Source: Novakomyces olei (lineage: Eukaryota). Taken from it: 64,000 nt of DNA. The first letter of the stretch is position 1, and every line of letters begins with the position of its first letter. The stretch is from the NCBI GenBank assembly GCA_016906335.1, contig JADEYG010000003.1, forward strand, positions 558,001 through 622,000. The letters run 5' to 3'. Position numbers and translations under genes: made by a program. The notes under the pieces are model-generated. The model was not told where the DNA came from, searched no databases, and saw only the letters and a program-made list of their open reading frames with translations. Below are positions 3,093 to 60,797 of the stretch, one piece after another.

Positions 3093-3653
3093 ACCGGATC
3101 ATTTGTTGTCATCGACAGCGATCGCTCTTGCGTATCAGTTTTGTATGGAGCGTTTGCTTACATTATTCTATTGTTTTATTATGTAGAGTTTGGGTTATAT
3201 AGTGGTCTAATGATTACTTGTGCTTGGGAACAAGCAGTACTTGAGTGGTACTATTAGACCTGTTCTGTGCTTATTCTGTGTTTATCCTCTGTAACTAACG
3301 ATTCTTTCTTTTGCAATTCTATCGAGTTGCCTTTATCTGTCTCGTATTTAGAGGATGGATTGGATTGGTTTTGCCTGCAATACACTTTTTGTGACATGTG
3401 GGTTTATTTTCAATATTTATCGAGCTGACAATCACCTTTAATACACCAAAATAAACATATAATTAATCGATAATTATTAATAATTAATAATTAATGATTA
3501 ATACTTGATAATTAATAATTAATACTTGATACTAATATTAATAGATATTTCTGAAACAAAGATGTTGAAACAAAAGCTCATTTACTAACACAACACTGAT
3601 GCTTTTCAGAACGCGACTACGCGCGATTTTACGCAAGGTATTTTCTTGCAGAA

Positions 3654-5420
3654 TTATGCTGCATTTTGCGGCTTTGTGCCGCTTTTATGGTATCGCCGTG
3701 GCGCTTCGCCATTCGGTTTCAGACGACGTCGCTCGTGTATAGTGACCGTATTGCCCTTAAATTCGAGTGTATTGCTTGGCAGTGAAAGTGCAAGTTTAAC
3801 GGACCTTGGGTCCTGGAATCCAACATATGCAGTTCCCTAATCATAAGCAAAAGGTACATAATAAATAAATAATGTTTTAAATAAATAATATTTTAATTAA
3901 TCGAAAAATAAAAATTACCTTGTTGCGGTCCATTCGCAAATAAGAAATATGGCCGAAACGTGCTAAAGCTTCCCTCAGCGCTTTCTCAGGCACGTTTGTA
4001 TGAATGTTTCGCACAAACACGCTATCTTCCTGCTGAGCTCCTGTCTCCTTTGAAGATGAAGTGGAAGAGGCGGTGCGTGCTTGTTCGTGCCTGACTTCTG
4101 AAGGCGCCGAAACCGATGCGTTGGGCTGGGGCTGGGGTTGGGGTTGGGGTTGGGGTTGAGGCTGCCTTTTAATTTGTCTGGTATTTTCGTCAGCCTCAGG
4201 CTTGACTGCCACCAAAGACGCCCATGATCCCGGTTTCGGAACAGCAGACTGCACCGGTTCTGGCTGGTACGGAGCGGAGACAGGGTTAGCAATCTCTGAG
4301 TCAGTTGGCTCCCGATGTTTGGGCTCATCTGGTTCTTGTTGCTGGACAACTTGTGGCTCAGGTCCATTGCCGAATCCATTGTCTACAGCGCCGTTGACAG
4401 TGCTGTGCTCATAACTGGAACCAGCGTAACCATTTCCATAAGCTGTGGAAGTGGGGGCCAGAGTGGGGACAGAGTTAAGGCCATTGCTGCTGGTGGGGGC
4501 CACAGTGTTTGTGGGGGGAAACGGCTCTGGAGATTTGGCAGAGCTTTCCTCGGAAGCAGCTTCATCAAAATCCTCTTTGATATAGCGGAAGATATCATTG
4601 AGAACAAAATACTCCCCTTTGTCCTGCTCAGCCAGGAAAAACGTCTGTACAAACTTCCGTGCCGGTTGGTCCCTATTCGAGATCTCTCCGAGAGATTGAA
4701 TGAGAATTCCACCATCCAAGGACTCTTGAACGTCTACATTCGATACGAATACCTTACAGCGCTCAAGTCCGAGCGATTTGAATTTGTCATGAATCATCTT
4801 TAAAGGGTCAGAATAGGAATTTAAAACATTTTCAGGCTAATTGTAGAAAGGCAAATATTGGAGCATACGGAAAGCAAGAAAAGATTTGCAAAAGGTAAAA
4901 TAAATGAAATAAATTATTTAGAAACCCATTAAAAAAAAATAAGACGATAGAGCCGAGCACAACAATAAAACGATATCAAGTGCGGAAAGACATTTACTGC
5001 GAAAAGTCCATAAATATACTTAATGAAGGTGAAGGACAAAAAGCAAAATCGAGATCAAGGCCAAAATAAAAAATTAAAAAAGCAAAACAAAAGAATGAAA
5101 TTAGAGCGTACCCTTTGTTCACGGTACACCTGGACCGGCTCCGTTTCGTGACCATGAATAAGCTGCGACCGTTTCGTGTAGAATCGCTGGGAATCAGTAT
5201 AAAAGATCTAGTAAGAACTATAGAGAAGAACAAAGTAACTCCAAAAAAAAGTTGCTCTGCCGTTACGTACGTGCATCTTTGAAGGGTCCTCATAAAGCAA
5301 AGTGTAATACTGTTGCACAAACATCCATCCAATTTCGCCCTTGGAGGGCAAATGCGGTGTCGGCTGTGCCGCCGCGGTATTCGCAGCCCCAACTTGACCC
5401 GAAGATGTTTGTTGGAACAT
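3654..5420 (-). CDS. nxt3: NTF2-like + RRM protein, G3BP/Nxt3/Bre5 (Ubp3 cofactor), spliced
   Basis: IGWMFVQQYYT, RKFVQTFFLAEQ..YFVLNDIFRY (NTF2 domain). SWASL motif. RRM SVFVRNI..ALARFG. Last exon 3654-~3837 ends ..KPQNAA*. An extra 5' exon is possible (CTAACAG acceptor near 5436). Confidence 0.88.
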
Positions 5421-22957: not shown

Positions 22958-23892
22958 GCTTATTTGTAAGATGGGGGTGTTTTATGGGGAAGATCAAGAG
23001 TTCTATAGTAGAAATGAATAGAGGTGCTTCCATGCCAAGCTGGGTCGTTATGGCATTTTTGATATTACCGTATATCATTGAGAAAGTTTATATAATAATA
23101 GTAAATAAATACATACATAATAAATAAATAAATAAATAAATGTATATATATATATATACATAAATGGGTAGGTGATTATCTAATTTGTTTAATGGATACA
23201 GACATTATGGCACAGTTTCTAGAAATAGAACGCATTTATCCGACATACGTTGCACTATCTATCCTGGGCGGCAATACTTCTTGTGCAGTACCATCGTTTG
23301 CTTTCTATTCCCTTATATCGACACTAAATCGAAGACTCGCGAATCGCCAAGAACTCGTCTGCATAAGAAGATCGCTATAGGTCGCAAAGGGTTAGGGTTA
23401 TTCATTTGAACCAATCACGAAGTGCTTATATAATATTCTCTGTCACCTGCATATCATATTTGTCCCGGATAAACTATGTCATACAAAGACCCTTTTTCTC
23501 GGTTATTTAGAATAATAATATGTATCGTGTTGGCTATAATTTGATTGATTTTTCGGTTCATTAATCATTCATTTTCCAGACACTGTGTCCAAACATGATG
23601 ATAATTTTCGACGGCGGCTCTGATTTTCGGTTATCCGGTCAAAGTGCACCGTCTTTTCCCGTCTGTCTTTGTGTGTATTCATGTATCAAAGCGTCGGCTG
23701 ATCGATAAGACAATGACCGATTGATGTAGATAAATAAACGCGTGTCCGCTATGTAAATAAAAACCAAACGCGCTCTTCGGTTAATTAATTTTTGTCCAGT
23801 GCAATGATGTATGTCATTAAATATATTTATCGATCTGATTTGCCCTTCATTCTTTGTAGTATTAGCAACTTGTAGATCGAGAACCGTTCGTT

Positions 23893-30934: not shown

Positions 30935-31191
30935 ATTGTGCAGTTTTGTTTGATAATAATTAATTCGATAAACCTGTAAGCCTAAATTTTGGCTATACCC
31001 ACCATATAAATTGTAAACCCTAACAAACCCTAAGAAAATATTATATGAGTTTTTAATGGCGTGTAAGATTCCTTGAAACAAACTGCTTTTAATTCTACAC
31101 AATTATTTGCTTGTCGATATTATAATAAAATAAATAAATTGTCTAATAAATAAATTGTCTACAAAAAAAGATAGTCGCTCAAAGATCAGCA

Positions 31192-32663: not shown

Positions 32664-34454
32664 TCACCAATTGTCGAAATTACCAAACCCTAGTTTTGGT
32701 TTCTTTTTAACAGGCTCAGGTTGCGATACAGTATCCTCCACGCTTGCTGGTGCAGCAGATCCAAGGTATTTTCCAACAGGAGTTTGGGAGTCATTCGCCC
32801 CTTTTGAATCTAATCGTTTCCCTGTCCAAGTCACTGCTTCATTCTCATCATCCTCTTTACTATTTTCCTTGCTTTCCTTTTCCTGGTCTTTTCCTTTCAA
32901 ATATTCTTCAAACGGGTCTATAAACACATTGATGCTCGTTATTGATATGTTCTCTTTCGGTCGGCTGTTAGGTCCAGTTGCTTGCTGTTCCAATCGGTTA
33001 AGGGTATCGTTTCCGCCCACGAGCTTTCCGAATATAGTGTGCTTTTTATCCAAATGTTTTGCAGGTGCAAATGTAATGAAACTGGTAATTAATAAGATAG
33101 ATTTCATTGTACACTGAAAAAGAAGAAAGAGAAGAAAAGAAAATTGAATTAAATCACCAGCCAGTCAAACAAAAAGCCATTCCAAAAAATAGGGAACAAA
33201 ACTCGATCAAAATTTGCGAGCAAATTTATAATTAAAAATCATAAGAAACAGGTCGATCACTTACAATTGCGAAGTATTGGTGTCCGGCCCCTTATTAGCC
33301 ATCGACAAAACTCCACGAGAATCATGAGACAGAGCATTATTAACTTCATCCTTGAAAGAATCCCGCCAAATAGAATGCCCATCTGTACCCGTACCTGTAG
33401 GATCCCCTCCTTGAACCATAAAGCCCTTTATAATCCGGTGGAAAATAGTATTATTGTAATATCCACTTTTAGCCAACATGATAAAATTGTAAGCCGCCAA
33501 TGGTGCTTGTTCAGCAAACAATTCAAGGTTCAAATCTCCCAAACTAGTTTGGATTTGTACGTAACCTTTTGCTTTAACTTTGCGAGGCACAAGAAGCCAG
33601 TCTCTTACAGATTTTTCCTCGTATTCCATCTTTGTATGAGGCGTGAAAGCTGTTGATGTAAACGAAGCGGCTGTTAAACCCTTTGATCGAGCTGATAAAT
33701 GCTCTGGCCGTTTTGTCATAGTTTCGAGAGATTTTAACTTTGAACCGTTTTCCTCCTTTTTATTTATGTCATTTTGCCGTAAATTCTTTACTGCCTCTTT
33801 AGCCCTTTGAATCCTTGAATCTGCATTTAGAGTGCCCCTTATCTTTTCATCTACACCATCTTTCCCCTTATCATTTAGCGCCTGCTTTTCCTTGGCACCA
33901 TCACTCTTGACAGACTGGAATGCAGCCATATTTCGGTTAGCCAGATTATGAGGATCCTGAATAGTAATAATATCCTTGCGCCGAAACTCTTCGCCGGAAA
34001 CGAGATCATTCCAGTTTCGAGGCTTAATGTTTAACCGCTCTATCGTGTCATACGCAAAAACGTTCCCCGAAGTTCGGAGCGCGACAATGTGTGTATGTTC
34101 CGTGAGGACTTTAAAAGTTACCGGGTCGATATACTCACCCTCAGAATTCTTGTGGAACCTCAGCTTCAGCAGCTGCGAGAGAGCCAGAGGCTCGCCACTT
34201 ACAGGATTAGTGCCGTTTCGTTTTACATAGGGGACAATATGTGCAAGGTCAAAGACAGTGGCCATTCCTTCACTGTCAACCACGCAAACAGCATTGCGAA
34301 AGGGCTGCAGCGAAAGACTGCAGTACTGGAAGGGAAGCTGTTTAAACAGCTGAGCTGTCTTGCGTGCAGTGATTCCGGAAGAAGCGCTGTGCGCTCCATA
34401 CTGGCCCGAGTGCTCAGAGTGGGTGACGTAAAGTTTATCTGTGTTTTTGCCCAT
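32664..34454 (-). CDS. U-box + cyclophilin PPIase Cyp60/PPIL2 (1 intron)
   Basis: [83 protein letters not shown]. Ends GFGNFDNW. Confidence 0.93.
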
Positions 34455-34660
34455 CGCTGAGCCGAACGGCAGTTGGCTCGCGCCGTATAGATACGTGCCA
34501 CTGTGTCTGCTGCGTACGGCGTTGCTGCCCGATTATTATTACAGAACAATATTGCGTCGCTCAGCGATATACAATAACCCTAACCCTAAATAAATCTGAG
34601 TATACTTTTTTTGGAGAAACAAATATAATTCTCGACGAGAGAATATTGCATTAAAAATTT

Positions 34661-37374
34661 ATGTCGAAACGGCAGCGTACAGAACCGACCGCGAGGCCAC
34701 GCGGCTCAAGGCTGTTTGCGCCGTTCCGGTCAATCGCGCATGTTTCAGACAATGTCCCGTTTCATGTGCATACGCGCGGAAACCAGCACCTTGTCACTAC
34801 TTCAGTCGGTGCTGCAATTCACACATACGATGTAGGTGTAGAATCATAATTTGGACACTAGTATTAACAGTCAAGGCGGCACATCTAAACCTGCTTTTTG
34901 TGAACTTTACCAGCGCACCAGCAAGAGCGATCTCGAGTGCTGGTAACATTACGCTTGCAGGTCTTGCCCGTGGAATTGTCGGGTTCACACGTGGTCGGCA
35001 AGTTTTGCAGATCGATATCGGTGGGGGCAAGAGTGGCAGTGGGGGTCTGGTGGGGGTCTGCGCGTTTGGTGGGCTCGTTGTTGCTGCCACCTCGAGTGGG
35101 CTGCAGACTTTTGCGCTTGATACTGGAGCCCACGTGTCCACCGTGGAATGTGGGGCGGTATCGCACGTTATTCACATGCCCACGTATCTCAATAAAGTAG
35201 CGGCGGCACTCGCAGACGGCAGACTCGCTATTGTTAATGTCAAAACGGGCCGCGTAGTTTACACGTTTGCTCATGACGCGGCTATAACGGCACTGAGTGC
35301 GGCGCCTGCTCTTGACGTAATTGCCGTCGGTTTGGCGGATGGCCGTATACTGCTACGGAATATCCGAAAGGACACAACGCTTATCCAGTTCCGGCACTCG
35401 CAAAAGTGTACTGCTTTGACGTTTCGCACGGATGCGCCCATCATGGCCAGCGCTAGCGAGGATGGGGTGGTATTATGGAACTTGGAAAAGTGCCGTGTGC
35501 ATTATATGCTACGCCAGGCGGCGCCCGCCAGCCAAGTACAGTTTTTGAACGGTCAGCCTATTCTCATTACTAGCGGGGACAATACGTTGGTCGAATGGAT
35601 CTGCGATTCATTGGATGGCTGCCCTCGGCACCTAAAGTCACGCAGTGGCCATCGGCTACCGCCTAATCGTATTCGCTTTTATTCAGGAGACTCGCATTTC
35701 ATGCTGTCGAGTGGCCAGGATGGGATGCTGCGGGCAGTTAGCTGCTACAACGATTCTCAATCGCAAGTAATGGCGGCGCGGGATGCTTACGGGCCGGTTA
35801 CCGCCCTCGCACTATCCCGCACAAGAGAACGCGATTGGGATAATATTATTACCGCCCACATAGATGATAGTCACGTGCGTACGTGGAACTGGCAGCGACG
35901 TGCTATTGGCAAGCACGCGGTGCCCACGTCCGATGGGACGGTAGCACGAAGCGTGGGCGTAAGCGGGTGTGGGAATTTCGGATTTATCGGTAGCGTGGGC
36001 GGCACGATCGATGTGTTCAACATGCAGAGCGGACGGAAGCAGCGGCACTGGCCCGCGCATCGTCGGGCAATTACGGGGCTGGCATGCTTTAACAGCATTC
36101 TTGTGTCAGCGTCCCTTGACGCCGATGTCCATTTTTGGACATTTGCGGGGGAATTATTGGCAACACAACAAATTGAAAGCGCTATTACCCTTTGCGTTTC
36201 GCACGCAGATACGGAACTGGTGGCAGTTGCCAGCGATGATTTAGCGATAAGAATCATCGATGCCGAGACACACCGGTGCATAAGGGAGTTGTGGGGCCAC
36301 AACAATCGGATTACGGACATTGCTTTTTCTGGTGATGCACGGTTACTCGTAAGCTCGTCCCTTGATGGCACTGTACGAACATGGGATCTCCCCAGTGGGT
36401 TAATGGTGGACGCGTTTGCTGTACGCGACACGTGTACATCTGTCGCGTTTAGCCCGATTGATGATTTATTGGCAACTACGCACGTCAATGACGTGGGCAT
36501 CAGCCTTTGGACAAATAAGGCACAGTTTCGCCCTGCTGCTATGCAGCACATGTCAGAAGACGACATTGTGCAAGTTGATCTGCCCGGTCACGGCAGAACA
36601 ATAGGCACAAGTGTAGTGGAGGCCGCCTTACAGAGCGAATCCACAGATGCCCAAAAATTTACTGGTGACAACACACTCGAAAACTTTGAGCAGCTACACA
36701 AGGACATTTTGACACTGTCTCTCGTACCGCGAGCAAGGTGGCAAACTTTAGTTAATCTGGAAGATATTCGGGCAAGAAACAGGCCGATTGAGCCGCCCAA
36801 GCAACCGGAAAAGGCGCCATTCTTTCTTCCGAGTTTACGCGATGTGCGCAAAGCAGAGAATGCCGATTCGCCAGGGGCCGAATCAGCCCACGCAAGAAAA
36901 AAACTGGATTCCGAATTCGTTTCGGAACCAGGTTCCGAGCCTGCCCGGGATTCCATGTCCCTTGCTAGTACGCAAGTTCCGACGGCCGATGTAAGTGGGG
37001 CCAGTCGCTTACTCGTAAGGTGCCACCAAATCAAAAGCTACTCTGAATTTATAAAATACCTTGAGGAACTCTCGCCGGCCGCGACTGATCTTGCTATCGG
37101 AGGATTTTCTCTGTTTCCTCCTTTTACTGAGCATATTGCTTTTTGCAAAGCGCTTACGGAACAAATAAGCAGGCGTAAGGATTTTGAATTAGTGCAAGCT
37201 TGGATGACGACATTTTTACGCAAGTATACAGATGTACTTTTAGCAAACGTGGAAGAAAATGAGCTGATGGATGCTTTAACGGAATACCAAAAGGCACAGC
37301 AAGCCGAATCGCAAAGATTAGCCGATTTAATTGGCTACGCCTTGGGCGTCGTGAATTTTGTGCGATTAAAATAG
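34661..37374 (+). CDS. UTP21: U3 snoRNP WD40 protein Utp21/WDR36 (1 intron)
   Basis: SRLFAPFR, PTYLNK, WD repeats (GHNNRITDIAFS.D.R), C-terminal RWQTLVNLEDIRARNRPIEPPK.PEKAPFFLP, DFELVQAWM. Confidence 0.94.
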
Positions 37375-38955: not shown

Positions 38956-39336
38956 TTTGATCAGATAATGACTCAATTGTCTTTTTTAAAAGCCCATTAA
39001 TTTATTTTGCCATTTGCCGTTTCATATTATTATACAGAATTCGGTTTATATTTTCAGTTGAGTTACAACTATAATATTAAAAATATAATTTAAAAATATA
39101 ATATTAAAACCATGATATATTAATATTAATATAATATAAAAATCAATAGTAATATCATTAGAAATATGTGTTATTGTACACAGTGGTATTATTATACCGC
39201 GGAAATCTGTTGTAATAACTCTTGTCATATTCAAAAGATCCTTCTTCCATTCACGCAGACACATTTAACCGGTTTGCGCGAGGAACAGAGCCGGAAAGCG
39301 TCGCGTTGTAAATAAACGCTACGCAGTCTCCTCACA

Positions 39337-39685
39337 ATGATGGGCTTGGCCGGTTACGTGGCCGTATGGTCTACAATGGGTACGGAAGGAACATAATATA
39401 AAACTGCCCAGACTATGCTAACAGGACGAGGCATCGTTACCCGCGCCGTTTTGAACTCGCACCGACAGTCACCTTTCCGGTGGAATGGTATCTATTGGAT
39501 TTTTGAAGGATTGAATGCTGATCATATTTACAGACTACTCCAGTTTTGCTCGATGGGCCGCGGTATGGGCTGGTCTTGGGTACGGATTGTTCCACCACCA
39601 GCGAAACTTGGAGGTCGCCAAACTTGATCGCTTTTATGCTCTGCTTTACTTGCGCGAGCAGCGTGCTAAAGGCATTGCTGTATAG
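39337..39685 (+). CDS. Probable complex I accessory subunit (fungal 14-kDa / NDUFC2-like), 2 introns
   Basis: Spliced MMGLAGYVAVWSTMG(RG)IVTRAVLNSHRQSPFRWND YSSFARWAAVWAGLGYGLFHHQRNLEVAK..LREQRAKGIAV*. Two hydrophobic segments, W..G...R.......PF pattern, basic tail. Confidence 0.6.
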
Positions 39686-41566: not shown

Positions 41567-42515
41567 ATGGCCGAGGCAAAGGTGGAGTCGGACTCGTTCG
41601 AGCCTATGTGCCGAATATGTTTTGGTGGAAAGGAGGACGAAACTACTCTAGGCCGATTAATCTCACCCTGCCGATGCAAAGGTACGAATTCCCATGATAA
41701 TATCTCTAATATTTTGTTTATAGGCTCGAGTCGATGGATTCACGTTGAATGCTTACAAGAATGGCGGCGGCGGGCGAAAAAGCAGCAAAGCTTTTTCCAG
41801 TGTGACCAGTGCCATTACCGCTACTCCTTCAAACGCACTACTATTGCAACTGTTTTGTTTTCTCCATGTATGCATAGCCGTGCTTTTGTATTCCTTTCAC
41901 GATTGACTTCCTTTAAAATTAAATCTATTTTAACGGTACCGCATCGAGCAGAATGCTAATTCTTCAGCGGTTCAGGCTATAATAACAGCAATTGTAATGC
42001 TGGGTCTCGTTTATTTATGCGGAATTTTGGCAAAGTTAAAGTTATATTATTGGGATACGTCTACGACACCTCGTGGCTTTTTCGAACCTGATCTATTTTC
42101 ACGGACCAGCTACTCAATATCCATTGGACCATTCTCCTTTTCCAATTATGGCAGTGGGTCTGCCCTGCTTGATATTCCCTCTATAGTGGACGATATCGGG
42201 CTACAGAGACCTTCTTCCTTGTTGGAGTGCTTTGCTTTCGATATCGCTCATGTTATTCTTGGCTCTGCCGTTATCGGCATGGCAGGTCTTATAACGTTAG
42301 TTGGCCTTTTCGCAAGCGGCATTCGTGGCTTTGGTCCCATATTCTCGTCTCGTCGAGGGGATCGTGTAGCTGGCCTATCTATTGCGCTTTTGGCTGTTGT
42401 ACTAATAACCGGGTTTGCACGAATCTGCAAAAGTATATGGAGCCTTGTAAATGTGTACACTGCTAGGGTAATGGATTCATGGGGAAACACTATCCTTGAG
42501 GTGAATGACGATTGA
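41567..42515 (+). CDS. RING-CH (RINGv) membrane E3 ligase, MARCH-type (2 introns)
   Basis: CRICF..RLISPCRCK/GSSRWIHVECLQEW..CDQCHY followed by several TM segments. Confidence 0.85.
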
Positions 42516-42729
42516 ATTGATTTAGGTATTATTAACCTGAGTATAAAATCATGAATAAAATATTTGAGCGTAAATTATTTAGCAACAACGTATATTAGAA
42601 AATTGATAGAAGTAGACTCGAGTAACCCTTTGTGGGAAAGTACAACCGAAATCGGACCAGAAGAAATTCGAGTCAAAGGTCAAGAAAATCTTGATAAAAC
42701 TACAGAACTAGAGAAATATTGTTTAAACC

Positions 42730-43500
42730 AAAAAGAAAAAGAAAGTATAGCTCTAATGTTTGCGAGCCTCTGGCATTTGCTATGCCAGCGTCGTCGCGAT
42801 TGGCAGACAACTGAAATGCCCTACCTTTCACTTTAAAGCCTTTTAAGGTTTACAAAGCCATAGGATATTTTATATAAAGTTTAAGCCATGGCCTTCTATT
42901 CATTTTTCTGTATTGTTTTCACAAAATGTCCCAGTGCGCTGTACACGCCCTGCAAAATGACAACAGGGCAAACGCAGCCTCGCTCTGGTCTCCAATGCCG
43001 AATGATAATAATAATAGAAAAAACGTTTCCTTATAAAATCCCAGCAAAAAGGTCCAAAAGGCATGGATCAACACAAAACGTGATGATAATACCTTAAATT
43101 TTGAACACAACGGAATTCAATATCTGCGACATGACTGATTACCTGGCCACGGCAATTTAATACCTTTCAGGTAGGCCGATAACTTAATTAGACGCAAAAC
43201 TGATCAGTCAAATTTTACTGCGTAAAACTAGAGAAATTGATACGAATCAACTGGCCTCTAATATGATCGCTGTAAAACTTAACTGATCAACATGTTTGTT
43301 AAAAAGTCTTCAATTTTATTTTTCAAGAGTACATGAAATGTACTCTTGTAATTTTAGCAAGATTATGTAGGATTTGTCTCGCTTTCGCAAAGTAGACCTT
43401 AGATTATTAAAAAACCATTGTAATCCTACATTAGGATTAGGGTTAGGGTCAATAATTTGACAGCAATATACTCTATAATGGCCAATAGTAACACGTAAAA
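42730..43500 (-). ncRNA. Candidate telomerase RNA (TER/TR); 3' end may extend to ~42560
   Basis: Minus strand: TATAAA (43534-43529), boundary hairpin GUCAA-AUUA-UUGAC (43461-43448), template CCUAACCCUAA (43447-43437), 22/23-bp arm with G-U pairs, pseudoknot with U-run + GCUGGGAUUUU pairing to AAAAUAUCCUAUGGC, core-enclosing helix 43480-43470/42839-42829. Structures paired by eye. Confidence 0.7.
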
Positions 43501-43602
43501 TCTCCCCACGGTAATGACGGTGTGGTACTTTATAGGTGAAATAGACCGGATTTTACCACACGATCGCACTCGTATCCACCACGCACTGTAAATTTGGCCA
43601 GA

Positions 43603-44091
43603 ATGATCCGCTCAGCAATGCGAGTCTCCCGGGCAGCTACTCTTCCTCGATTCTCACGGGTCCCGGCTCCTATGAGATTCGGTGCACGTGCATTTTTCGC
43701 GTCCACAGGTCGATGGGACAAGTACTATACGGAGACGCACGAGTACGTTGACGTTACCGACAACATTGCTACTATCGGAATAAGCGAGTACGCGGCCAAC
43801 TCCCTCGGAGATATCACGTTTATCGAGGTCTCAAAGGACGCCCGTGACGAGGTTTCTCGTGGAGACGAAATTGGAGCCGTTGAAAGCGTTAAAAGTGCGA
43901 GCGATATATACTCTCCAATCACGGGTATCGTGGTTGACGTAAACAAGTCGCTCGAGGACTCGCCCAGCAAGTTGAAAAGCAAAAACGCGGAAAGTACAGG
44001 ATGGCTCTACAAGCTGGAAGTCACGCAAAAGGCAGAATTGGAAGAGCTTTTGACGCCGGCGGATTACAAGTCTCTTTTGCAAGACAGTTAG
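43603..44091 (+). CDS. GCV3: Glycine cleavage system H protein, mitochondrial
   Basis: Arg-rich presequence. YTETHEYV, TIGISEYA..LGDI, lipoyl motif AVESVKSASDIYSP, GWLYK. Confidence 0.95.
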   Translation: MIRSAMRVSRAATLPRFSRVPAPMRFGARAFFASTGRWDKYYTETHEYVDVTDNIATIGISEYAANSLGDITFIEVSKDARDEVSRGDEIGAVESVKSASDIYSPITGIVVDVNKSLEDSPSKLKSKNAESTGWLYKLEVTQKAELEELLTPADYKSLLQDS

Positions 44092-60647: not shown

Positions 60648-60778
60648 ATTAATTCAATAATTAATTCGATTAATTCACAATTAATTCGATTAATTCACAA
60701 TTAATTCGATTAATTCATAATTAATTCGATTAATTCATAATTAATTCGATTAATTCATAATTAATTCGATTAATTCAA
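60648..60778. repeat. 20-bp tandem minisatellite (ttaattcgattaattca[c/t]aa) x~6
   Basis: Visible as aligned 20-bp units 60661-60780, immediately upstream of the ATG at 60798. Confidence 0.95.
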
Positions 60779-60797
60779 TAATCATGTTTGCCAAACC

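What the first reader, a model, noticed from the sequence alone, without database searches (positions are those of the whole stretch)
42730..43535. Unannotated minus-strand structured RNA with telomerase-RNA architecture between the RING-CH gene and GCV3
Read 5'->3' on the minus strand, these elements are seen. (1) TATAAA at 43534-43529. (2) CAUUAUAGAGU (43480-43470) pairs 10/11 with GCUUUAAAGUG (42839-42829), a candidate core-enclosing helix. (3) Hairpin GUCAA-AUUA-UUGAC (43461-43448), a candidate template boundary element. (4) CCUAACCCUAA (43447-43437), about 1.8 copies of the complement of TTAGGG. (5) A structured arm. (6) A pseudoknot. (7) A 3-way-junction-like domain. This is the established order in vertebrate and ascomycete telomerase RNAs. 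The gap has no credible protein-coding gene. Telomerase RNAs diverge too fast for routine annotation, so this one is probably undescribed for this organism (inference).
Basis: partly seen in the sequence, partly recalled or inferred. Interest (0 to 1): 0.92.

Follow-up and report, generated by a model that had tools for sequence, protein, structure and literature searches.

The report
Candidate fungal telomerase RNA gene, unproven
A gene-free gap next to GCV3 in a deep-branching ascomycete holds an unusually well-folding stretch that starts with a telomere-template-like sequence, so it may be the telomerase RNA gene, but the same sequence also occurs as a promoter motif nearby and no expression or comparative data could be obtained.

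Summary

Evidence for an RNA on the minus strand:
- The gap is the best-folding of 32 ORF-free 600-nt windows (z -5.6; next best -3.9). The excess stability is larger on the minus strand.
- The template-like stretch is predicted single-stranded, in the top 10 of 813 nine-nt windows.
- A 5-bp hairpin ends exactly at the template's 5' edge. Chance for a non-coding position is 1.4%.

Weaknesses:
- AACCCTAA is a general enriched motif here (12 observed, 1.8 expected).
- Perfect telomere-like stretches of 9 nt or more occur at three loci in 64 kb. One sits in the Utp21 promoter, and this one lies 155 bp upstream of the GCV3 ATG.
- No triple-helix pseudoknot was found.
- There were no Rfam hits, no RNA runs, no relatives and no genome.

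Verdict: telomerase RNA about 0.5; promoter motif plus incidental structure about 0.38.

The parts
43529..43534 (-). TATAAA(G) box-like element, 82 nt upstream of the template-like stretch; also 69 bp upstream of the GCV3 ATG on the other strand
   Evidence: Sequence read. No other TATA-like element lies between it and the GCV3 ATG at 43603 (read), so it cannot be assigned to one strand.
43464..43475 (-). 5' strand of the MFE terminal helix (UAGAG + AUAUUG), paired with 42721-42709
   Evidence: MFE helix list, 11 Watson-Crick pairs in two blocks with no G-U. My rough estimate of chance is about 0.2 (inference).
43448..43461 (-). Template-boundary-like hairpin GUCAA-AUUA-UUGAC, ending directly at the template-like stretch
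   Evidence: Chance of such a hairpin ending exactly at a non-coding position is 1.4%.
43437..43447 (-). Template-like CCUAACCCUAA (with C43448 it reads CCCUAACCCUAA): 5 nt for alignment plus 6 nt for copying if the telomere repeat is TTAGGG. On the + strand it is a TTAGGG-type double motif 155-172 bp upstream of the GCV3 ATG
   Evidence: Predicted unpaired, with mean P(unpaired) 0.857 over the first 9 nt; only 10 of 813 nine-nt windows are as open.
43422..43438 (-). Hairpin AAUCCUA-AUG-UAGGAUU directly 3' of the template. Its 3' arm can instead pair perfectly over 10 bp with 43374-43365
   Evidence: inverted repeat I4.
43200..43290 (-). Long imperfect hairpin arm of about 90 nt, with 3 G-U pairs in the outer 19-bp helix as read on the minus strand
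   Evidence: It scores 29.8 bits on the minus strand and 20.8 bits on the plus strand against an unrelated long-hairpin Rfam model.
43324..43348 (-). Perfect 11-bp hairpin CAAGAGUACAU-UUC-AUGUACUCUUG
42931..42988 (-). Three-way-junction-like element: CCAG/CUGG pairing (42988-42985 with 42934-42931, overlapping the last base of the P6.1-like stem), P6-like GCCCUG...CAGGGC, and P6.1-like GUGU-ACAGC-GCAC
   Evidence: It is at chance frequency (116 such double hairpins in 128 kb), the loop is not NUNGN, and the MFE prefers an extended single hairpin.
42749..42811 (-). Three consecutive G+C-rich hairpins (GUUGUC/GACGAC, CUGGCAU/AUGCCAG, GGCUC/GAGCU)
42728..42745 (-). U-rich tract CUUUUUCUUUUUGG with an Sm-like UUUUUGG
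   Evidence: It does not begin with the consensus A, and no GU[AU]NGU 5' splice site follows it.
42709..42721 (-). 3' strand of the MFE terminal helix (CAAUAU..CUCUA); approximate 3' limit of the structured region

Best explanation
The minus strand of about 43500-42700 most likely encodes the telomerase RNA (TER) of this organism. The organism is a deep-branching, Taphrinomycotina-like ascomycete.

Proposed mechanism (inferred):
- A Pol II transcript starts shortly downstream of the TATAAAG at 43534.
- The single-stranded CCUAACCCUAA (43447-43437) is copied by TERT into TTAGGG repeats, using 5 nt for alignment and 6 nt as template.
- The 5-bp hairpin that ends at 43448 acts as the template boundary.
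- The hairpin arms further 3' act as a scaffold.
- The U-rich tract at 42745-42728 binds Sm/Lsm proteins.

Shown here: the sequence elements, the exceptional predicted folding, the strand bias of that folding, and the predicted accessibility of the template.

Not shown: transcription, the telomere repeat of this genome, binding to TERT, a pseudoknot, and a canonical P6.1.
For: 1. Folding. Among 32 ORF-free 600-nt windows folded on both strands with 10 dinucleotide shuffles each, 42759-43358 ranks first. On the minus strand the MFE is -180.9 against a shuffle mean of -137.2 (z -5.6). On the plus strand it is -145.5 against -119.9 (z -6.9). The next best window has z -3.9 and -3.7. The tool's own runs on 42700-43520 give z -3.69 on the minus strand (excess -35.0 kcal/mol) and z -3.13 on the plus strand (excess -23.0). 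Structure is therefore stronger as minus-strand RNA.
2. Template. CCCUAACCCUAA lies at the 5' end of that structure on that strand. Its first 9 nt have mean P(unpaired) 0.857, and only 10 of 813 nine-nt windows are as open.
3. Boundary hairpin. A 5-bp hairpin ends exactly at the template's 5' edge. Chance is 1.4% per non-coding position.
4. No competing annotation. The 1087-bp gap has no ORF above 69 aa and no Pfam match reaching its cut-off. It is unique within the window. It matches no other Rfam family, so the common long ncRNAs are not the explanation.
5. Lineage. The Utp21 ORF's best named hits are Saitoella, Taphrina, Neolecta, Schizosaccharomyces and Protomyces at 41-43% identity. Taphrina, Pneumocystis and Saitoella have TTAGGG telomeres (PMC7857110, passages).
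6. Order of elements. 5' helix, boundary hairpin, template, arms, junction-like element about 200 nt from the 3' end, then a U-tract. This matches fungal TERs as described in PMC3592445 (passages).
Against: 1. The template-like sequence is not specific here. AACCCTAA occurs 12 times against 1.81 expected (0 of 100 shuffles reach 12). Perfect telomere-like stretches of 9 nt or more occur at three loci (23389-23401, 34575-34590, 43437-43448).
2. The tandem pair at 34576-34589 lies 73-86 bp upstream of the Utp21 ATG (34662) in a divergent promoter about 200 bp long. There is no room for an RNA gene there.
3. The candidate's motif lies 155-172 bp upstream of the GCV3 ATG, where a promoter element would sit. 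Tbf1 and Teb1 bind TTAGGG in promoters (PMC12449055 and PMC7857110, passages).
4. No pseudoknot with a U-rich loop and U-A stem was found.
5. The only P6/P6.1-like element is at chance frequency and has ACAGC instead of NUNGN (consensus from PMC3592445).
6. No canonical 5' splice site follows the Sm-like tract.
7. No telomerase family of Rfam matches even at E up to 10.
8. About half of the excess folding is also present on the plus strand, so DNA-level palindromes contribute.
Confidence: 0.5

Rival explanations
1. The TTAGGG-type tandem motif is a Tbf1/Teb1-type (telobox) promoter element of GCV3. Under this reading the rest of the gap is ordinary intergenic DNA: the GCV3 promoter, the 3' UTR of the RING-CH gene, and incidental palindromes. 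There is no telomerase RNA here.
For: AACCCTAA is enriched about 6.6-fold in the window (12 against 1.81). A tandem pair of the same motif lies in the Utp21/cyclophilin divergent promoter. The candidate's motif is 155-172 bp upstream of the GCV3 ATG. Myb-type factors that bind TTAGGG act at promoters in budding and fission yeasts (PMC12449055 and PMC7857110, passages). At 3 telomere-like loci per 64 kb, a genome of roughly 12-18 Mb would hold hundreds of such sites and only one TER (my estimate; the upper size comes from run X1's 18 million letters). The pseudoknot, the P6.1 consensus and the enclosing helix all fail to rise above chance.
Against: This reading needs several coincidences. The motif must sit beside the best-folding of 32 ORF-free windows. 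It must read as the C-strand on the strand that folds better, and at that strand's 5' end. A hairpin must end exactly at its edge (1.4%). It must also be among the most accessible 1.2% of positions in the fold. The region 23090-23689 next to the telomere-like site at 23389-23401 shows no such folding (z -1.5 and -1.3).
Confidence: 0.38
2. The gap encodes a different, undescribed structured non-coding RNA on the minus strand, or a cluster of small RNAs. The telomere-like motif would then be its promoter element, or one shared with GCV3, and not a template.
For: The folding is exceptional and stronger on the minus strand. Tbf1 sites are reported to mark snoRNA gene promoters in S. cerevisiae; I saw this only as a title in the reference list of PMC12449055. 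A C-box GTGATGA at 43080 and a CTGA at 43135 lie on the plus strand.
Against: There is no Rfam match to any snoRNA, snRNA, RNase P/MRP or SRP family at gathering score, and only noise at E up to 10. The minus strand has no C box. I could see no terminal stem around the plus-strand C/D motifs, reading the plus strand as the reverse complement of the minus-strand read. If the TATA at 43534 is used, the motif lies inside the transcript, not upstream of it. The hairpin adjacency and the accessibility of the motif would again be coincidences.
Confidence: 0.07

Closest known systems
Fungal telomerase RNAs of Taphrinomycotina and Pezizomycotina (S. pombe TER1, Saitoella complicata TER, Neurospora crassa TER; Qi et al. 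2013, PMC3592445)
   Same: The template complements about 1.8 TTAGGG repeats. A helix lies directly 5' of the template. Long hairpin arms follow. A P5/P6/P6.1-like element lies near the 3' end, followed by a U-rich tract. The gene appears to be Pol II-type with a TATA box (paper passages).
   Different: At about 0.8 kb at most it is much shorter than TER1 (1212-1213 nt) or N. crassa TER (2049 nt); those sizes are from the paper texts. The boundary helix is a local 5-bp hairpin. No triple-helix pseudoknot was found. The L6.1-like loop is ACAGC, not NUNGN. There is no recognisable 5' splice site for spliceosomal 3'-end cleavage. There is no Rfam hit.
Vertebrate telomerase RNA (template/pseudoknot plus CR4/5)
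   Same: The template is 11 nt long, the same length as the human template and covering the same repeat in a register shifted by one base (the human sequence is recalled, not from a call). The order is template first, then a junction element.
   Different: No Rfam match of any kind reached threshold; that Rfam holds a vertebrate telomerase model is recalled. I did not look for an H/ACA domain and noticed none. The pseudoknot was not found.
Tbf1/Teb1/Tay1-type TTAGGG ('telobox') promoter elements
   Same: The motif has the form (A/G)CCCTAA, is in tandem, and lies within about 170 bp of a start codon. It is enriched in the window, with a second tandem copy in a ribosome-biogenesis gene promoter.
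   Different: A promoter element does not explain the adjacent hairpin, the predicted accessibility, or the exceptional minus-strand folding of the next 700 nt.

Membership tests
Telomerase RNA (fungal/vertebrate type) | Template complementary to at least about 1.5 telomere repeats | tested here: met
   CCUAACCCUAA at 43447-43437 covers 1.8 repeats of TTAGGG. Two other loci in the window also carry 9 nt or more of the same repeat.
Telomerase RNA (fungal/vertebrate type) | The organism's telomeres consist of the repeat that the template specifies | not testable with these tools
   No genome is held and the window has no terminal repeat array. TTAGGG is reported for Taphrina, Pneumocystis and Saitoella (PMC7857110), but this lineage has no close sequenced relative.
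Telomerase RNA (fungal/vertebrate type) | Template boundary helix directly 5' of the template | tested here: met
   A 5-bp hairpin at 43461-43448 ends at the template. Chance is 1.4% exactly at the position and 3.3% within 2 nt. Function not tested.
Telomerase RNA (fungal/vertebrate type) | Template single-stranded in the folded RNA | tested here: met
   Mean P(unpaired) is 0.857 for the first 9 nt. Only 10 of 813 windows are as open. This is a prediction only.
Telomerase RNA (fungal/vertebrate type) | Template-proximal pseudoknot with U-rich loop and triple helix | tested here: inconclusive
   The strict descriptor gave 0 hits (5 of 60 shuffles have at least 1). The relaxed descriptor gave 2 hits against a mean of 58.7 in shuffles. 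The descriptors are my own and could miss a real fungal pseudoknot with large insertions.
Telomerase RNA (fungal/vertebrate type) | Three-way junction with P6 and a 4-bp P6.1 carrying a 5-nt NUNGN loop (4-5 nt loop in S. pombe and S. complicata) | tested here: inconclusive
   A double hairpin at 42969-42934 has a 4-bp stem and 5-nt loop ACAGC. The G is present and the U is replaced by C. There are 116 such double hairpins in 128 kb, and the scan found no separate P5. The only NUNGN hairpin on the minus strand is next to the template. Consensus from PMC3592445.
Telomerase RNA (fungal/vertebrate type) | Sm/Lsm site and 3'-end processing signal (spliceosomal cleavage in many fungi) | tested here: inconclusive
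   There is an Sm-like UUUUUGG at 42734-42728, but no GU[AU]NGU or AUAAGU on the minus strand across 42400-43560. This organism's own 5' splice sites are degenerate: GTACGA, GTATGC, and GTGTAG or GTAGGT.
Telomerase RNA (fungal/vertebrate type) | Match to a curated telomerase RNA model | tested here: not met
   There was no Rfam hit at gathering score on the whole window, and no telomerase family at E up to 10 on 2.2 kb or 0.6 kb. TERs of new lineages often fail such searches; S. complicata TER was not found by BLAST (PMC3592445).
Telomerase RNA (fungal/vertebrate type) | Stable transcript of the right strand; association with TERT; covariation in relatives | not testable with these tools
   No RNA holder was listed and only DNA contigs were laid. 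The metagenome scan for GCV3 found only relatives at 42-44% identity. There were no look-alike windows.
Tbf1/Teb1-type telobox promoter element | RCCCTAA/TTAGGG motif, enriched in the genome, close upstream of genes | tested here: met
   12 observed against 1.81 expected. A tandem copy lies 73-86 bp upstream of the Utp21 ATG. The candidate is 155-172 bp upstream of the GCV3 ATG. Three of the 12 lie inside long ORFs, so not all are promoter sites.
Tbf1/Teb1-type telobox promoter element | Bound by a Myb-type factor and needed for expression of the neighbouring gene | not testable with these tools
   Needs ChIP or a reporter assay.

The most novel reading that the evidence does not exclude
This is the telomerase RNA of a deep, so far unsampled Taphrinomycotina-like lineage, in a stripped-down form. 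It would be only about 0.8 kb, with a ciliate-like local hairpin as template boundary, a non-canonical L6.1 loop, no classical U-rich triple-helix pseudoknot and no spliceosomal 3'-end cleavage. It would be transcribed head-to-head with GCV3 from a shared promoter about 100 bp long.
Probability: 0.2. Interest if true: 0.6.

Novelty: new member of a known kind. Interest (0 to 1): 0.42.

Why it matters
Telomerase RNAs evolve so fast that each new deep lineage has to be found afresh. Within Taphrinomycotina, the passages I read describe TERs only for Schizosaccharomyces pombe and one Saitoella species (PMC3592445). A compact TER from a lineage only about 43% identical in Utp21 to any sequenced relative would add an independent data point on the ancestral fungal/vertebrate core (template boundary, pseudoknot, P6/P6.1).

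The case also carries a practical warning. In genomes that use TTAGGG-type promoter motifs, a template-like sequence alone has almost no predictive value. In this 64-kb window there are three such loci.

Tried and rejected
- Whole genome: none is held, so chromosome ends and competing TER loci could not be checked.
- Sequencing runs: no RNA holder was listed. The only holders are two DNA runs that may be the source. Laying X1-X4 at 80% likeness gave identical contigs from X1 and X2, nothing from X3 and X4, and no joints or differences.
- Relatives: the scan's own index has no look-alike windows and no notes. The metagenome scan with the GCV3 protein matched 598 stretches; 2 were confirmed, at 44% and 42% identity (L001, L002), too distant to use.
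- Rfam: nothing at gathering score. At E up to 10 there were only long-hairpin, CRISPR-repeat, leader-hairpin and H/ACA noise hits.
- Three-way junction as evidence: rejected, since it is at chance frequency and off consensus.
- Pseudoknot: not found with two descriptors of my own.
- Repeat or MITE origin of the hairpins: no other copy in the window.
- Small ORFs in the gap: no Pfam match reaching its cut-off.
- snoRNA boxes: none on the minus strand. One C/D-like pair on the plus strand, with no terminal stem that I could see by eye.
- Supplementary tables of PMC3592445 (TER lengths and alignments) were not opened. They could bear on the expected size and the P6.1 consensus in Taphrinomycotina.

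Full report
**What is in the sequence**

I read 44000-42300 on the minus strand.
- TATAAA is at 43534-43529.
- CAUUAUAGAGU (43480-43470) and GCUUUAAAGUG (42839-42829) pair at 10 of 11 positions, three of them G-U.
- The hairpin GUCAA-AUUA-UUGAC is at 43461-43448.
- Directly after it comes CCUAACCCUAA at 43447-43437, followed by UCCUAA.

The flanking genes are as stated. A RINGv-domain gene lies at 41567-42515 with introns, and a GCV_H gene at 43603-44091, both on the plus strand. The 1087-bp gap has no ATG ORF above 69 aa, and its two small ORFs have no Pfam match reaching its cut-off.

**The organism**

No genome is held for this window. The Utp21 ORF at 35176-37374 finds its best named relatives at only 41-43% identity. 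These are Saitoella, Taphrina, Neolecta, Schizosaccharomyces and Protomyces, followed by Mucoromycota (745 proteins with E at most 0.001 among 8000 candidates scored). The window therefore comes from a deep-branching, Taphrinomycotina-like ascomycete with no close sequenced relative.

Taphrina, Pneumocystis and Saitoella are reported to have TTAGGG telomeres (PMC7857110, passages). A TTAGGG template is therefore plausible, but it is not shown for this genome.

**Is the 'template' special?**

It is less special than it looks.
- CCCTAACCCTAA with up to one mismatch occurs three times against 0.23 expected. One of those is at another locus, 34578-34589.
- The 8-mer AACCCTAA occurs 12 times against 1.81 expected, and 0 of 100 shuffles reach 12. 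It accounts for 12 of the 20 CCCTAA hexamers.
- Perfect matches of 9 nt or more to the telomere repeat occur at three loci: 23389-23401, 34575-34590 and 43437-43448.
- The tandem pair at 34576-34589 lies between a cyclophilin/Rtf2-type ORF on the minus strand (ATG at 34454) and Utp21. The Utp21 start I place at 34662, because homologues align from 34658. That is a divergent promoter about 200 bp long with no room for an RNA gene.
- Tbf1 and Teb1 are Myb-type factors that bind TTAGGG in promoters of ribosomal-protein, histone and other genes (PMC12449055 and PMC7857110, passages).
- The candidate's motif, read as TTAGGATTAGGGTTAGGG on the plus strand, lies 155-172 bp upstream of the GCV3 ATG.

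A promoter-element reading is therefore a serious rival. At three such loci per 64 kb, a genome of roughly 12-18 Mb would hold hundreds of them and only one TER. This is my estimate; the upper size comes from run X1's 18 million letters.

**What a promoter motif does not explain**

*Folding.* I cut all ORF-free gaps (no ORF of 110 aa or more) into 32 windows of 600 nt. I folded both strands, each against 10 dinucleotide shuffles.
- Window 42759-43358 ranks first on both strands. On the minus strand the MFE is -180.9 against -137.2 (z -5.6). On the plus strand it is -145.5 against -119.9 (z -6.9).
- The runners-up are 3185-3784 (z -3.9 and -3.7) and 39061-39660 (z -2.75 and -3.25).
- The window next to the telomere-like site at 23389-23401 is unremarkable (z -1.5 and -1.3).
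- The tool's own runs on 42700-43520 give z -3.69 on the minus strand and -3.13 on the plus strand.
- The excess stability is larger on the minus strand in both analyses: -43.7 against -25.6 kcal/mol, and -35.0 against -23.0 kcal/mol. This fits G-U pairs in a minus-strand RNA. Roughly half of the signal is palindromic and visible on either strand.

*Boundary hairpin.* The 5-bp hairpin ends exactly at the 5' edge of the template-like stretch. This happens at 1.4% of non-coding positions, and at 3.3% within 2 nt.

*Accessibility.* In the partition function the first nine template nucleotides have mean P(unpaired) 0.857. Only 10 of 813 nine-nt windows are as open. The stretch sits between the boundary hairpin and a second hairpin at 43438-43422.

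*No competing annotation.* The region is unique within the window. It matches no Rfam family at gathering score, so the usual long ncRNAs are not the explanation.

**What did not hold up**

The MFE uses a better terminal helix of 11 Watson-Crick pairs, 43475-43464 with 42721-42709. I estimate that even this arises by chance about one time in five.
- The three-way-junction-like element is P6-like GCCCUG...CAGGGC followed by GUGU-ACAGC-GCAC at 42969-42934, flanked by a CCAG/CUGG pairing. It is one of 116 such double hairpins in 2 x 64 kb. My scan found no separate P5, and its loop lacks the U of the NUNGN consensus (consensus from PMC3592445). The MFE folds this region as one extended hairpin instead.
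- A strict pseudoknot descriptor (contiguous helices, U-rich loop, at least 3 U-A pairs) found nothing. A relaxed descriptor found 2 hits against a mean of 58.7 in 60 shuffles. These descriptors are my own and could miss a real fungal pseudoknot.
- An Sm-like UUUUUGG lies at 42734-42728, but no canonical 5' splice site follows it. The organism's own 5' splice sites are degenerate, however.
- No Rfam telomerase family appears even at E up to 10 on 2.2 kb or 0.6 kb.

**What could not be tested**

- Expression: no RNA holder was listed, and the two DNA holders are identical to the window.
- Conservation: no relatives could be reached.
- Telomere repeat and competing loci: no genome is held.

**Weighing the evidence**

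For a random telomere-like site, the joint chance of all of the following is about 2 x 10^-4 by my rough multiplication (for the folding, for the hairpin):
- lying beside the best-folding of 32 windows;
- being on the right strand and at the right end;
- having a hairpin ending at its edge.

Against several hundred such sites in the genome, this gives about even odds with the single true TER. The accessibility result raises the TER side. The missing pseudoknot and the off-consensus P6.1 lower it.

If a structured RNA really is made here, TER is by far its most likely identity. My estimates are:
- TER: about 0.5
- Promoter motif plus incidental structure: about 0.38
- Some other ncRNA: about 0.07
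- Anything else: the remainder

**Novelty**

If real, this is a new member of a known kind. It would be a compact fungal TER of about 0.8 kb from an unsampled deep lineage, with a local hairpin as template boundary. It would be of moderate interest to telomerase specialists. If not real, it illustrates that in genomes using TTAGGG-type promoter motifs a template match alone is not evidence.

Noticed in passing
window 13845, 21041, 23392, 29694, 30549, 31016, 31026, 34576, 34582, 38531, 43437, 57331: AACCCTAA is enriched about 6.6-fold (12 observed, 1.81 expected). Tandem or closely spaced pairs occur at 31016/31026, 34576/34582 and 43437/43443. It looks like a telobox-type regulatory motif, but 3 of the 12 lie inside long ORFs and some may be intron branch-site-like (CTAAC or CTAAT).
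   Followed up: partly
window 34454-34662: A divergent promoter of about 200 bp lies between a cyclophilin/Rtf2-RING ORF (minus strand) and Utp21 (plus strand, ATG placed at 34662 by homologue alignment). It carries a perfect AACCCTAACCCTAAA.
   Followed up: yes
window 3185-3784 and 39061-39660: These two other ORF-free windows fold better than their shuffles (z -3.9/-3.7 and -2.75/-3.25). The first is rich in ATTAAT-type simple repeats. Neither was examined further.
   Followed up: no
window 43080-43138 (+): A C-box-like GTGATGA is followed 55 nt later by CTGA on the plus strand, inside the candidate region. I could see no terminal stem, and there is no Rfam snoRNA hit.
   Followed up: partly
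window 43365-43374 / 43422-43431: A perfect 10-bp complementarity links the 3' arm of the hairpin next to the template with a copy of AAUCCUA 50 nt downstream. This would be an alternative pairing that frees or occludes the 3' end of the template-like stretch.
   Followed up: no
window 60663-60784: Tandem copies of an AATTAATCGAATTAATTA-like unit of about 20 bp appeared in the hairpin scan.
   Followed up: no
window 34836-34866, 41683-41723: Introns are very short (about 30-40 nt) with degenerate 5' splice sites (GTACGA, GTATGC, and GTGTAG or GTAGGT) and CTAAT/TTAAC-type branch sites.
   Followed up: partly
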